Assembly (NCBI GenBank): GCA_048939995.1
Contig: JBHLOY010000003.1
Location: 352,001-416,000, forward strand
Origin: Promethearchaeota archaeon
GTDB taxonomy: Archaea; Asgardarchaeota; Lokiarchaeia; Sigyniarchaeales; SOKP01
DNA: 64,000 nt
Direction of reading: 5' to 3'
Below, piece after piece: positions 20,848 through 30,724 of this stretch. The stretch's first letter is position 1. Each line of letters starts with the position of its first letter. The translations under genes and the position numbers were made by a program. The notes below the pieces were generated by a model, which was not told where the DNA came from, did no database searches, and worked only from the letters and a program-made list of their open reading frames with translations.

Positions 20848-22479
20848 ATGATTAATAATTCTCATATGTTCGGGGATATTGGTATTGATAGTGTTGGTTT
20901 CTATGCCCCAAAGTATTACTTAAAATTAAAAGATTTGGCATTCGAGAGAAATGTTGATCCAGATAAATATAAAAAAGGTTTAATGTCAATTGAGATGCGA
21001 TTACCTGCAATAGATGAAGATATTATCTCAATTGGGTTAAAAGCTGGATATAATGCTCTTGTGAAAGGCAATATTTCACCCAAATCTATTGATGCGGTAT
21101 TTTGTGGTACTGAAACAATAACGTACGCAGTGAAATCCGTGTCAAACATCTATGCGGAATTACTTGGCGCCCCAAGGAACGTTTTGACTCAAGACATTTA
21201 TAATGCCTGCGCTGGGGGCACTCTTGCGATATTAAATGCGATAGCTTTGGTTGAAAAAGAAGTAATTGAAAGGGCTCTGGTGATCTCCGCTGACATTTCA
21301 TCCTATCAAATGCATTCTCCGAGCGAACCTACTCAAGGGTCTGGGGCGATTGCCCTTGTTATATCCAAAAATCCAAGAATTGCTACTTTCAGTAAAAAAT
21401 TCGGAAAGGTTTCGGGTAATGTAAATGATTTTTGGAGACCCGCAAATGATGTAAATGCTAATGCATTTGGACAATATTCTGTAGACGCTTATTTGAATTT
21501 TCAGTTAACTGCTTATGATGATCTCATTAACCATCTTGGAGATTTTCATGCAGATTATTACACTTTTCATGCTCCCTTCGCTAAATTACCAATTAAAATT
21601 ATGCAACAAATTATCCAAAAAAGGTGGGTAAATCATATCAATACTCTACCAAAAATTAGGCCTCAACCTACGATAAAAAAATCAATTAAACAGAAATTAA
21701 ATTCCTTTTTGCATGACATTACAGTCCTTCCCGAATATATTTATTTAAAACTGCGAGAACGAGGGTATTCTTCACAAACTTTAGAAAAAATATCGCATCA
21801 GATATTAGAGAATGTAAAATACAAAGTTCTTCCACAATTAAGAGTCCCATCGCACTTTGGGAATATGTACAACGCAGCAGTATGGGCTCAGATCCTCTAT
21901 ATTCTTGAGAATTATGGACATGTTCATGATACTATTTACTTTGGTTCTTATGGTTCAGGAGCTACCTGTATCTCAGGTTTACTAAGAGTAAAACCAGGTT
22001 TCAAGGAAATTGTTGGAAAACCCCCACTAATTAACGATTTCATTACAATTAAGGAAAGAAGAAGTGTATCCGAATATGAATTAATGAAGGAAGGAAAATT
22101 TATGGAGAACATTGTTTTAGGAAAAATAGTAGAGCATGAAGAGAATAACCATAGAGGATTTAAACTTCATTTCTGTGATGAGGGGTGTATTATTCCTAAT
22201 ATTGAGGGATTAAATCATTGTCCAAAAGGGCATTCTGGATTTCATGAAAGATTCTTTCCATTATTTGCTATTTTAGATTCAGAACCTATGGTTTTAGATG
22301 ATAATAACGATCTTAGTTATTTAAGCAAAGGATTAGTTAGAATCACTGGAAAAGTAACACAAGGAAACGCATTAGAATATGAGATAAGACGCATTGATAA
22401 CAATTCAGTTAAAAATGGTGAAGCTCTAGGATTATTAAATTGGGCACCTATTTATCTACCTGTAGAAAAAATCTACTAA
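20848..22479 (+). CDS. mvaS: Hydroxymethylglutaryl-CoA synthase with a C-terminal DUF35-like extension
   Basis: Catalytic GTET, YNACAGGT, EPTQGSGAIA, FHAPF, GNMYNAA and SYGSG motifs; about 120 extra C-terminal residues. Confidence 0.9.
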   Translation: MINNSHMFGDIGIDSVGFYAPKYYLKLKDLAFERNVDPDKYKKGLMSIEMRLPAIDEDIISIGLKAGYNALVKGNISPKSIDAVFCGTETITYAVKSVSNIYAELLGAPRNVLTQDIYNACAGGTLAILNAIALVEKEVIERALVISADISSYQMHSPSEPTQGSGAIALVISKNPRIATFSKKFGKVSGNVNDFWRPANDVNANAFGQYSVDAYLNFQLTAYDDLINHLGDFHADYYTFHAPFAKLPIKIMQQIIQKRWVNHINTLPKIRPQPTIKKSIKQKLNSFLHDITVLPEYIYLKLRERGYSSQTLEKISHQILENVKYKVLPQLRVPSHFGNMYNAAVWAQILYILENYGHVHDTIYFGSYGSGATCISGLLRVKPGFKEIVGKPPLINDFITIKERRSVSEYELMKEGKFMENIVLGKIVEHEENNHRGFKLHFCDEGCIIPNIEGLNHCPKGHSGFHERFFPLFAILDSEPMVLDDNNDLSYLSKGLVRITGKVTQGNALEYEIRRIDNNSVKNGEALGLLNWAPIYLPVEKIY

Positions 22480-27810: not shown

Positions 27811-27816
27811 AGGTGA
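27811..27816 (+). promoter_or_regulatory. Shine-Dalgarno site (AGGTGA) for mevalonate kinase
   Basis: AGGTGA lies 5 nt before the ATG at 27822; AT-rich TATA-like stretch just upstream. Confidence 0.7.
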
Positions 27817-27821
27817 AAATT

Positions 27822-28788
27822 ATGGGAACTGGAAAAGGATACGGAAAGACCATTCTTTTTGGCGAATCTTATCTCCCAATTCGAGAGTAAACGCTAGCAT
27901 TTTGTGGTTTATGGTCTTCCCGCCATTGCGTCCGCTCTAGGCTCTATGACAATTGCTAATGTTAACGTCCTTGATGGTCAGGGTTGGGTAGTTGATGATC
28001 AAAGAATTGCAACACCGGGATATAAAGAAGCAAAGTATAATGAAGCACAAAAAGCAATAAAAAATGTAATAGAATTTTTAAATATCAATACAAACGATCA
28101 AAAACTTGAAATTATCTTTACTGGTGATTTAATCGCTGCAAGCGGAGTGGGTGCTTCTGCAGCACAATGTACATCTCTTGCACGTGCACTCAATGAGGAG
28201 TTTAACCTTAATCTAGATGATGGTAAAATAAATGAAGCTGCTTATGCGGGAGAAATGGCTTATCATGGCACTCCATCTGGTATCGATAATACTGCATCCA
28301 CATATGGAGGATTAATTTGGTTTATAAAGAATTTAATTGGAGGGAAAAATACAATCGACCGTCTAAAGGCAAGAGCCAAAATGTTTTTAGTAATCGCTGA
28401 TACTGGTATAACCGCCTCCACAGCTGAAGTTGTTGCAGATGTTCGTAATTTGAAAGAACAAAATCCAGACAAATATAAAGCAATATTTGCTGAATATAAG
28501 GACCTTGCCAAAAATGCTAAAAAGGCATTAATCAGAGGGAAAACGAGTCTTGTGGGAAAATTAATGATTCAAAATCAGAAATTATTGCAATTAATGACTG
28601 TATCAGGGGAATTTAACGATAATATTGTAGAAATTGCTTTAAATAATGGAGCATTAGGAGCGAAAGTTACTGGAACAGGACGAGGGGGGTTAGTAATAGC
28701 ACTAGTCTCGGATGAAAACTCACAAAAAAAAGTCTCTCAAGCAATTGAAAAAGAAGGTTTTACAATTTGGAACACAACAATTGGATAG
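27822..28788 (+). CDS. mvk: Mevalonate kinase, split: join(27822..27866,27898..28788), 311 aa after removal of a 31-nt insert
   Basis: Exon 1 reads MGTGKGYGKTILFGE and exon 2 reads HFVVYGLPAIA, rebuilding the GKxILFGEHxVVYG motif. Downstream GHMP motifs SGVGASAA, HGTPSGID and GAKVTGTGRGG are intact. Confidence 0.9.
27867..27897 (+). other. Candidate 31-nt bulge-helix-bulge (BHB) intron in the mvk mRNA
   Basis: TCTTATCTCCCAATTCGAGAGTAAACGCTAG. Central helix GGCG/CGCT, 3-nt bulges AA^T and AG^C, internal hairpin TTA-TCTC/GAGA-(G)-TAA; contains an in-frame TAA at 27888. Confidence 0.75.
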
Positions 28789-28822: not shown

Positions 28823-30724
28823 TTGAGTTTGACTGAAAGTAACAAGCTTTATTTGTTAAAACTGGGAGGAAGTTTACTAACTGATAAAAATTATCCATTT
28901 TCACTAAGGGAAGATGTAATTGATAGTACAATTGAACAAATTATAAAAAGCCATCAAAATCTAATTCTTATTCATGGTGGAGGATCATTTGGTCATCCAT
29001 TAGCGAAAGAGTTTCAAATTTCTAAAGGTTTCAACCCATTAATTAAGGATCAATTAATTGGTTTGTCAAAAACCCATGAAGCTATGAATAGACTTAATTC
29101 TCTCATTATCAATAAATTTATTGCAAAAAATTATCCCGCAATTTCAATTCAACCATCAACCATATTTATTCAAGATGAGAATACCATCTCTTTCGAATCT
29201 TTTAACTCTATCGACATCATGTTGAATCTAGGCATTCTACCCGTACTATATGGTGATATTTTATTTACTAAAGATGGATCTTTTTCCATACTTTCAGGTG
29301 ATCAAATTATTTTTGAGCTGTGTAAGAAGTATCAGAAATCAATTAAGAAGGTAATCTTTGCTATTGAGGAGGATGGTATATTTATAAAAGATACCGATCA
29401 TAAACAATTAGTCCTAGAAATTGCCTCTAGTGAATTAAATGATATTAAATTAGCAAAATTTGATGAAAAGATAGATGTTACCGGGGGGATTAAAGGAAAG
29501 CTAAAAATAATAAAAAGAATTGCTGAATTGAATATTCCGGTTCAATTGATCAATGGATTGAAAGATGACTATATTTTAAAGGCATTAGGAGATCAAAAAT
29601 TAACTTGTACATATATTAGACCAGATCTAAAGACTCATTTCCATAAAGAAATTCATTCTCGAAAATTGGAGCATCTAAAAATACCTCTAAAACATAATGT
29701 TCAACATTCAAGAAATTATTTTGAAGATATACGATTAATCCATCATCCTCTCCCTGAAATGGATTTTAATGATATAGATCTTTCGACTGACTTCTTTAAT
29801 AAACATATTTCTGCACCTATCTGTATCGCTGCTATAACTGGAGGCCATCCTATTTCTAAAGCAATAAATAGAATTCTAGCCTTAGCTGCTGAATCAGAAA
29901 ATATTATTATGAGCGTTGGGAGTCAAAGAATAGCATTAGAGGATCAATCTACTATAGATTCATTCAAGGTTGTCCGAGATGTAGCTCCTAATATTCCAAT
30001 TATTGGAAATATTGGTATTGGTCAAATAAGTAATCAAGATTTTGATCAAAATCAATTTGAAGAATGTGTAAAAATCATTAATGCTGACGCAATGGCAATT
30101 CATTTTAATGCGTTGCATGAACTAGTACAACGAAATGGAGATCGTTCATACCAAAATTTTCAAGACAATTTTATAAAATTAAAAAAAGGTGCAAAAATTC
30201 CATTAATCGCAAAGGAAGTTGGAACTGGCTTTGATAAAGATTTAGCAATAAAGCTAGATCATTTAGGATTTAATGGATTCGATGTGGGAGGGGCAGGTGG
30301 TACCAGTTTTGCAGCAATTGAGGCAATCCGAGATGACTCCGATTATGAAGTATTTTCAAGAAAAATTGCTAATACATTTAGAGAATGGGGCATTCCAACA
30401 CCAATAAGCATTTTAAATGTGAGAGAGGTTTCAAATAAGTTATTGATAGCTACTGGGGGTTTGAAGACAGGGTTAGATATAGCAAAAAGCATTATATTAG
30501 GAGCAGATATTGGAGGTTTTGCCTATAAATTCCTTCTCTCTGCATGGAAAGATTACAATAGCAATACTACAATCAATACGATTAAAGAAATAAGAACATT
30601 AAAACATGAATTAAAATCTACAATGTGGCTGTTAAATATAAATAATATAGAAAGCCTAAAACAAAGTAAGGATAAATTAATTCTATTAGGGGAATTATAC
30701 CAATGGGTACATCAAAAACCTTGA
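28823..30724 (+). CDS. fni: Fusion of isopentenyl phosphate kinase and type 2 (FMN) isopentenyl-diphosphate isomerase
   Basis: N-half: LKLGGSLLTDK, HGGGSFGH, PVLYGD, SGDQ, DVTGGIKGK. C-half: RKLEHL, AITGG, GSQR, HFNALHE, KEVGTG, GAGGTSFA, EWGIPT, ATGGLKTG. Confidence 0.92.
   Translation: MSLTESNKLYLLKLGGSLLTDKNYPFSLREDVIDSTIEQIIKSHQNLILIHGGGSFGHPLAKEFQISKGFNPLIKDQLIGLSKTHEAMNRLNSLIINKFIAKNYPAISIQPSTIFIQDENTISFESFNSIDIMLNLGILPVLYGDILFTKDGSFSILSGDQIIFELCKKYQKSIKKVIFAIEEDGIFIKDTDHKQLVLEIASSELNDIKLAKFDEKIDVTGGIKGKLKIIKRIAELNIPVQLINGLKDDYILKALGDQKLTCTYIRPDLKTHFHKEIHSRKLEHLKIPLKHNVQHSRNYFEDIRLIHHPLPEMDFNDIDLSTDFFNKHISAPICIAAITGGHPISKAINRILALAAESENIIMSVGSQRIALEDQSTIDSFKVVRDVAPNIPIIGNIGIGQISNQDFDQNQFEECVKIINADAMAIHFNALHELVQRNGDRSYQNFQDNFIKLKKGAKIPLIAKEVGTGFDKDLAIKLDHLGFNGFDVGGAGGTSFAAIEAIRDDSDYEVFSRKIANTFREWGIPTPISILNVREVSNKLLIATGGLKTGLDIAKSIILGADIGGFAYKFLLSAWKDYNSNTTINTIKEIRTLKHELKSTMWLLNINNIESLKQSKDKLILLGELYQWVHQKP

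What the first reader, a model, noticed from the sequence alone, without database searches (positions are those of the whole stretch)
27822..27910. Frame-shifting 31-nt bulge-helix-bulge micro-intron inside the mevalonate kinase gene
Seen in sequence: an RBS-preceded ATG (27822) encodes MGTGKGYGKTILFGE, then 31 foreign nt (27867-27897, with an in-frame TAA), then HFVVYGLPAIA in a different frame. Removing exactly these 31 nt rebuilds the conserved GKxILFGEHxVVYG motif and a 311-aa enzyme; unspliced mRNA gives a 22-aa peptide. The junctions fold as a relaxed BHB: exon GGCG (27861-64) pairs with intron CGCT (27892-95), each followed by a 3-nt bulge (AAT, AGC). The intron forms a hairpin (TTA-TCTC/GAGA-G-TAA), and the exons can pair further out (ACCAT/GTGGT). 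Established knowledge: the archaeal splicing endonuclease EndA cuts after the second nucleotide of each bulge and RtcB ligates. Applying that rule (AA^T, AG^C) gives GGC GAA CAT TTT, the frame-restoring product, without using any protein information. BHB introns are typical of tRNA/rRNA; the well-known mRNA case is crenarchaeal cbf5. Inference: this is an endonuclease-spliced mRNA intron in a core lipid gene of an Asgard-like archaeon. Caveat: the two flanking helices are imperfect (a C-A mismatch on the intron side, one adjacent pair on the exon side).
Basis: partly seen in the sequence, partly recalled or inferred. Interest (0 to 1): 0.95.

Follow-up and report, generated by a model that had tools for sequence, protein, structure and literature searches.

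The report
Mini-intron splitting Asgard mevalonate kinase gene
The only mevalonate kinase gene of this Asgard archaeon is broken by a 31-base insert that has the shape of a tRNA-type intron and is kept in 56 related genomes, so it is very probably cut out of the mRNA; in the papers I could search, this is confirmed inside only one archaeal protein gene (cbf5).

Summary
Observation confirmed. A 31-nt insert (27867-27897) splits the FGE|H motif of the only mevalonate kinase gene of a Promethearchaeota (Loki-type Asgard) genome; removing it gives a 311-aa enzyme. The same site carries a 28-31-nt insert in 56 of 135 genomes of the family; 36 others lack it. Homologues fix the junction exactly where the splicing endonuclease EndA would cut. 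One exon-intron pair covaries perfectly (44 C-G, 4 U-A, no mismatch; at least 3 independent changes), and intron-bearing genes are under purifying selection (dN/dS about 0.12). The host encodes an (alpha-beta)2-type EndA and RtcB. Five more genes of this genome, including its only EF-1alpha, carry similar inserts. Three near-identical allele pairs differ by the intron plus a diverged 5' tract, which points to exchange by recombination. The motif is relaxed (HBh'), and I found no spliced transcript, so splicing is inferred, not shown. This scan has noted the same mvk intron before in other genomes (AI notes); my scores rest on my own tests.

The parts
27812..27816 (+). Ribosome-binding site GGTGA
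   Evidence: Sequence; the same motif precedes the start in most homologues
27822..27866 (+). mvk exon 1 (15 codons, GKxILFGE half of the N-terminal motif)
   Evidence: matches the N-terminus of intronless homologues
27861..27864 (+). Central helix H, exon strand (GGCG)
27865..27867 (+). 5' splice-site bulge AA^U; predicted cut between 27866 and 27867
   Evidence: 3-nt bulge in the unconstrained alignment fold; junction fixed by homologues
27867..27897 (+). 31-nt intron; shifts the frame and holds an in-frame TAA at 27888-27890
27868..27891 (+). Intron hairpin h' (up to 9 pairs, 6-nt loop; C.A at the first position in this copy, U-A in 45 of 48)
27892..27895 (+). Central helix H, intron strand (CGCU)
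27896..27898 (+). 3' splice-site bulge/loop AG^C; predicted cut between 27897 and 27898
   Evidence: closed only by the single pair U27860-A27899 (48 of 48)
27898..28788 (+). mvk exon 2 (296 codons plus stop)
   Evidence: TIGR00549 mevalonate kinase 201 bits, cut-off 163; PF00288 + PF08544
24854..27759 (+). Upstream genes of the same cluster: UbiD-type decarboxylase, AcnX large and small subunits (modified archaeal mevalonate pathway)
   Evidence: Pfam; pathway assignment from established knowledge
28823..30724 (+). Downstream fusion of an amino-acid-kinase-family domain and an FMN-dependent domain (probable isopentenyl phosphate kinase + type 2 IPP isomerase)
   Evidence: Pfam; names inferred from context

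Best explanation
[quoted passage not shown] The pre-mRNA folds into a relaxed bulge-helix-bulge (HBh'): a 4-pair exon-intron helix, a 3-nt bulge at the 5' site and an intron hairpin, with a loosely closed 3' site. The host's (alpha-beta)2 EndA cuts after the second base of each bulge (AA^U, AG^C), RtcB joins the exons, and the full 311-aa mevalonate kinase is translated. Shown: the insert, its exact boundaries, conserved and covarying pairing, selection on the enzyme, presence of the enzyme genes. Inferred: cleavage by EndA, ligation by RtcB, the spliced mRNA. Also inferred: intron status moves between close lineages by homologous recombination of the gene's 5' part (direction unknown).
For: Boundaries set by homologues coincide with the EndA cut rule. 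56 of 135 family genomes carry a 28-31-nt insert at this one site, 36 lack it, none matched both. All 48 examined hit a stop if unspliced, including 30-nt in-frame versions. The three helix pairs next to the 5' bulge are formed in 48/48; one of them is C-G in 44 and U-A in 4, with 4 changes on the tree, at least 3 forced by well-supported branches. G-U alternatives occur at three positions. The silent third base of Gly14, which lies in that helix, is C or T in 56/56 intron-bearing genes but A or G in 21/36 intronless ones (counted). Unconstrained alignment folding of 46 copies recovers helix, 3-nt bulge and hairpin. Intron identity 0.73 against 0.46 at fourfold sites; median dN/dS 0.12 against 0.10 in intronless genes. 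Only mvk found in the genome. EndA alpha subunit with the Tyr/His/Lys triad and the loop segment shared with crenarchaeal alpha subunits, a second paralogue lacking the His, and RtcB are present. Five more genes of this genome have 30-33-nt frame-breaking inserts with 4/4 central helices, including the only EF-1alpha.
Against: No spliced transcript found: two junction scans of metagenome contigs gave nothing, without a positive control, and three intronless near-twins proved to be different genomic alleles. The motif is imperfect: the outermost central pair is G.A in 32 of 48, and the exon-exon helix is one pair. The fold lies a median 1.9 kcal/mol above the minimum-energy fold, and the predicted probability of the central helix is 0.44 here, median 0.17. 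Whole-structure shuffle tests on 17 sequences were only modest (11-36 of 500 for three measures). One intron-bearing copy (G007) looks broken further downstream.
Confidence: 0.88

Rival explanations
1. Translational recoding: the ribosome hops over the 31 nt (as in T4 gene 60) or shifts frame on the unspliced mRNA, and the hairpin is the recoding signal.
For: A stop codon and a hairpin follow the take-off point; no spliced RNA has been seen.
Against: No codon matching the take-off codon GAA precedes the landing site: the last three insert bases vary (TAG, TAA, TAT, AAT, AAA). Insert lengths of 28, 30 and 31 nt need different shifts, and a simple shift would put 9-10 residues inside the conserved GE|H motif. 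The covarying pair joins exon to intron in EndA geometry.
Confidence: 0.04
2. The insert is removed from RNA by something other than EndA/RtcB, or is excised at DNA level in part of the population.
For: The motif is relaxed; intronless alleles 95-96% identical to intron-bearing ones exist.
Against: Those intronless alleles differ by many silent changes in exon 1, so they are not precise excision products. G-U substitutions fit an RNA structure. Both ends match the EndA rule, and the host enzyme type is reported to cut HBh' motifs (PMC5829648).
Confidence: 0.04
3. The gene is inactive (pseudogene) or makes an N-terminally truncated 294-aa protein from GTG 27904, as annotation pipelines call it.
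For: An in-frame GTG exists; databases hold 293-319-aa calls for these genes.
Against: dN/dS 0.12 across 17 intron-bearing genes; exon 1 keeps GKxILFGE in all copies; it is the only mvk found in a mevalonate cluster. By established knowledge of GHMP kinases the missing Lys and Glu-His residues belong to the mevalonate-binding site.
Confidence: 0.03
4. Assembly or sequencing artefact.
For: The genome is probably metagenome-assembled (38 contigs, contamination 5.3%).
Against: Three further assemblies of the same species (99% identical gene) and 55 other genomes carry the insert.
Confidence: 0.01

Closest known systems
cbf5 pre-mRNA intron of Crenarchaeota (Desulfurococcales, Sulfolobales; PMC2738675)
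   Same: Short (16-44 nt there, 28-31 here), relaxed BHB, cuts after the second bulge base, sits in a conserved active-site motif, hetero-oligomeric EndA host, patchy presence among relatives.
   Different: Different gene (lipid-pathway enzyme) and lineage (Asgard); at least six interrupted protein genes in one genome instead of one; presence differs between alleles 95-96% identical; splicing is shown by cDNA and in vitro for cbf5 but only inferred here.
46-nt BHB intron in the 5' UTR of Haloferax HVO_1309 (PMC7714728)
   Same: EndA-processed intron in an mRNA.
   Different: Non-coding position; does not break a reading frame.
Non-canonical tRNA introns of Asgard archaea (bioRxiv 10.64898/2026.10.13.758758)
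   Same: Same motif, size range and enzyme; repeated gains; same superphylum.
   Different: That study covers tRNA genes only (the word mRNA does not occur in its text). No sequence similarity of the mvk intron to another site in this genome was found.
IRE1/RtcB splicing of XBP1/HAC1 mRNA in eukaryotes (own knowledge)
   Same: Short frame-changing, non-spliceosomal mRNA intron removed by a protein nuclease and a tRNA ligase.
   Different: Different nuclease and RNA motif; regulated by stress. No evidence of regulation here.

Membership tests
EndA-spliced BHB mRNA intron (cbf5 type) | 4-bp exon-intron central helix | tested here: met
   4/4 in this copy (one G-U); three pairs in 48/48, the fourth G.A in 32/48; covariation at one pair
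EndA-spliced BHB mRNA intron (cbf5 type) | Intron ends fall after the second base of each 3-nt bulge | tested here: met
   Junction fixed by homologues equals the rule's prediction
EndA-spliced BHB mRNA intron (cbf5 type) | Intron-side helix h' | tested here: met
   First three pairs formed in 45-47 of 48
EndA-spliced BHB mRNA intron (cbf5 type) | Exon-side helix h (needed for the strict motif, not for relaxed HBh') | tested here: inconclusive
   One invariant U-A pair, then mismatches; no conserved outer helix in the consensus fold
EndA-spliced BHB mRNA intron (cbf5 type) | Host encodes a broad-specificity (alpha-beta)2 EndA and RtcB | tested here: met
   Two EndA paralogues, one with the triad and closest to crenarchaeal alpha subunits including their loop segment; RtcB E 7e-168. 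That the two assemble is inferred.
EndA-spliced BHB mRNA intron (cbf5 type) | Removal restores a gene under purifying selection | tested here: met
   311 aa; dN/dS 0.12
EndA-spliced BHB mRNA intron (cbf5 type) | Spliced mRNA observed; cleavage by EndA shown | not testable with these tools
   No RNA reads at hand; indirect searches negative and uninformative
Mevalonate kinase (TIGR00549) | Score above the curated cut-off; GKxILFGEH motif; mevalonate cluster | tested here: met
   201 bits against 163 for exon 2 alone; the three other GHMP proteins score 97 or less; context
Translational bypass (T4 gene 60 type) | Matched take-off and landing codons | tested here: not met
   GAA against TAG/TAA/TAT/AAT/AAA
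Group I or II self-splicing intron; homing-endonuclease-coding intron | Ribozyme core or internal ORF, hundreds of bases | tested here: not met
   28-31 nt; no Rfam match

The most novel reading that the evidence does not exclude
Loki-type Asgard archaea routinely splice protein-coding mRNAs with the tRNA machinery: several core genes per genome (mvk, EF-1alpha, metG, purA, fwdA, a CoA-transferase here) carry tiny introns at their most conserved motifs, and these introns behave as a still-spreading class of elements that move between close lineages together with flanking exon DNA.
Probability: 0.55. Interest if true: 0.9.

Novelty: new variant of a known kind. Interest (0 to 1): 0.78.

Why it matters
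In the papers I could search, cbf5 is the only archaeal coding region with confirmed splicing (PMC2738675, PMC7714728). Here a lipid-pathway enzyme and the only EF-1alpha of an Asgard archaeon appear to depend on it. If confirmed, genes in pieces and a need to process mRNA before translation exist in the closest prokaryotic relatives of eukaryotes without a spliceosome, which bears on how mRNA introns could first be tolerated and on non-spliceosomal mRNA splicing by RtcB. It is directly testable with metatranscriptome reads and a short in vitro EndA assay. Practically, many Asgard proteins are mis-annotated: databases hold 293-319-aa versions of this enzyme with wrong or missing N-termini.

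Tried and rejected
De novo genome scan for BHB motif plus frame repair: 187 hits against 196 for a mirror-geometry control, so it cannot count introns; only fwdA stood out (a first version timed out). Spliced-junction scans of metagenome contigs: 0 hits twice, with no positive control. Intronless proteins 96-98% identical to intron-bearing ones (P0109, P0085, P0158, P0160) were checked as possible cDNA contigs: all differ in exon 1 and are other alleles. A pattern written with N{36} returned no match even in known positives and was discarded and repeated. No look-alike of the intron was found elsewhere in the genome at up to 8 mismatches, so a copy from a tRNA intron is not supported. No Rfam family. 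The sigma-70 promoter scan is not suited to archaea and showed nothing useful. An in-frame 24-nt insert a few codons downstream in L070 has no convincing BHB register. Six literature searches found no paper on Asgard coding-region BHB introns; subscription journals are mostly not covered.

Full report
Observation. The sequence is as described. After GGTGA, the ATG at 27822 opens 15 codons ending in GGC GAA; 31 nt follow (27867-27897), with TAA at 27888; the rest of the gene continues as CAT TTT GTG in another frame. Unspliced reading stops after 22 residues; removal gives 311 residues. Exon 2 alone passes the mevalonate kinase model TIGR00549 (201 bits, cut-off 163). The gene lies in a mevalonate cluster with HMG-CoA synthase, UbiD, AcnX subunits and a kinase-isomerase fusion. 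The closest named relatives (74-78% identical) come from records labelled Promethearchaeota or other Asgard groups; I read the organism as a Loki-type Asgard archaeon.

Not an artefact, not a spare copy. Three other assemblies of the same species (gene 99% identical) carry the insert, one with a single base change inside it. The genome (98% complete) has four GHMP-family matches; the other three are a heptose-phosphate-kinase-like protein, an unassigned protein and a beta-RFAP synthase, all far below the mvk cut-off, and tblastn with the joined protein finds only this locus.

Distribution. Among 154 genomes of the order, 56 carry a 28-31-nt insert at exactly this site, all in the window's family and in five genera. 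In that family (135 genomes) 36 have the joined sequence and none matched both patterns; the remainder matched neither, which may reflect incompleteness or divergence. Of 48 copies examined, 44 are 31 nt, three are 30 nt and one is 28 nt, and all run into a stop if left in.

Boundaries and structure. In this genome alone three registers give the same protein. In homologues the last two insert bases vary, and only the cut after GAA gives Glu-His in all of them. That homology-defined junction equals the EndA rule (cut after the second base of each bulge; PMC2738675). The three central pairs next to the 5' bulge are formed in 48 of 48 copies. One is C-G in 44 and U-A in 4 with no mismatch, and the U-A copies need 4 changes on a tree of the gene body, at least 3 forced by well-supported branches. 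The exon base of that pair is the silent third position of Gly14: it is C or T in all 56 intron-bearing genes but a purine in 21 of 36 intronless ones (counted; kin are not independent, so no P value is claimed). Unconstrained alignment folding of 46 copies returns the central helix, the 3-nt 5' bulge and a 9-pair intron stem. Weak points: the outermost central pair is G.A in 32 of 48, the exon-exon helix is a single U-A pair, and the motif is usually not the lowest-energy fold (median 1.9 kcal/mol above). Shuffle controls on 17 sequences were modest, while slid partners dropped pairing from 85% to 37-45%. The motif is therefore a relaxed HBh', a class that (alpha-beta)2 enzymes are reported to cut (PMC5829648).

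Selection. Pairwise dN/dS has a median of 0.12 among 17 intron-bearing genes and 0.10 among 10 intronless ones; the insert is more conserved (73% identity) than fourfold-degenerate sites (46%). One intron-bearing copy (G007) appears broken further downstream.

Machinery. The genome has two EndA paralogues and one RtcB. One paralogue keeps the Tyr, His and Lys of the triad and aligns best with crenarchaeal-type alpha subunits, including their N-terminal loop segment (E 5e-37); the other lacks the His, as expected of a beta subunit. ARAGORN finds only 24 tRNAs, 15 flagged with introns, which suggests many interrupted tRNAs.

Not a single case. Following leads from earlier scan notes, I checked other genes in this genome. 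EF-1alpha (C11:167313-167345, minus, 33 nt), metG (C6:82172-82203, 32 nt), fwdA (C17:377423-377452, minus, 30 nt) and a CoA-transferase (C38:64707-64737, 31 nt) each have a frame-breaking insert with a 4/4 central helix and an intron stem; purA on C7 shows a 30-nt stop-containing insert with GGGG/CCCT (read). EF-1alpha is single-copy, and its insert recurs in 9 other genomes. A motif-free spliced alignment against 1.5 Mb of relative G008 (717 shared genes) recovered fwdA and metG as the only clean frame-breaking inserts in this genome, and one 30-nt stop-containing insert in ribosomal protein uS3 of G008; ordinary in-frame indels scored at the level of the mirror control. A scan without homology could not separate signal from background, so the true number per genome is open.

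History. Presence and absence need 9 changes on the tree, at least 7 forced. Three pairs of alleles that are 95-96% identical differ by the intron and by a diverged 5' tract: 14 differences in the first 45 nt against 0-4 per 45 nt elsewhere (L066/L067), 17 in the first 90 nt (L068/L069), and 31 in the first 180 nt against 4 in the remaining 753 (L165/L166). Exon flanks are also more alike among intron-bearing genes than among intronless ones at matched distance. I infer exchange of the 5' segment by homologous recombination; precise loss through a cDNA of the gene's own mRNA would leave exon 1 unchanged. Whether this is spread or loss cannot be told.

What is missing. No spliced transcript was found; the collections are mostly DNA and the scans had no positive control, so this is weak evidence either way.

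Comparison with what is known. It works like the crenarchaeal cbf5 intron and meets every defining feature that can be tested from DNA, except that the exon-side helix is weak; the experimental feature is untested. As of 2020 cbf5 and a Haloferax 5' UTR were the only reported mRNA cases (PMC7714728); a 2026 preprint on Asgard introns treats tRNA only. Putative introns in other archaeal protein genes were predicted earlier without confirmation (PMC2738675). This scan has recorded the same mvk intron in other genomes, and similar inserts in many Asgard genes; those are unchecked AI notes and were used as leads only.

Verdict. Real, conserved, most likely an EndA/RtcB-spliced mRNA intron (0.88). 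New variant of a known kind; interest 0.78.

Noticed in passing
G000 C11:167313-167345 (minus); relatives L161-L164: The only EF-1alpha gene is split in its GK|ST P-loop by a 33-nt insert with a near-perfect BHB; 9 other genomes of the family carry a 31-33-nt insert there.
   Followed up: yes
G000 C6:82172-82203, C17:377423-377452 (minus), C38:64707-64737, C7 (purA, minus): metG, fwdA, a CoA-transferase and purA carry 30-32-nt frame-breaking BHB-shaped inserts at conserved motifs.
   Followed up: partly
G000 C38:64707-64737 against window 27867-27897: The CoA-transferase insert resembles the mvk insert at both ends (GAA^T.TTATCTC ... TAAAC) and has the same length; common origin or A/T-rich convergence not tested.
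   Followed up: no
L146 (G008 C11): Ribosomal protein uS3 of relative G008 carries a 30-nt stop-containing insert with BHB features that this genome lacks.
   Followed up: partly
L011, L012, L014, L016, L021, L017 (mvk start): Five intron-bearing mvk genes have ACG and one has CTG where all others have ATG/TTG/GTG, after a normal GGTGA site: possible non-standard start codons.
   Followed up: no
L066/L067, L068/L069, L165/L166: Near-identical mvk alleles with and without the intron differ by a diverged 5' tract of 45-180 nt, a sign of recombination.
   Followed up: yes
L070:1061-1084: An intronless mvk allele (P0055 cluster, 4 members) has an in-frame 24-nt insert five codons downstream of the intron site, without a clear BHB.
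   Followed up: partly
window 27822-28788: This mvk clade is far closer to PDB 2hfs (E 3e-73; a Leishmania enzyme by my recollection) than to the other solved mevalonate kinases (E 1e-30 or weaker), and only about 30% identical to GHMP kinases of the neighbouring family f2.
   Followed up: no
window 20848-22479 and 28823-30724: HMG-CoA synthase has a C-terminal extension of about 170 residues without a Pfam match; the probable isopentenyl phosphate kinase and type 2 IPP isomerase are fused.
   Followed up: no
whole genome G000: ARAGORN finds only 24 tRNA genes in a 98% complete genome, 15 with introns and several with doubtful anticodons; many multi-intron tRNAs are probably missed.
   Followed up: no
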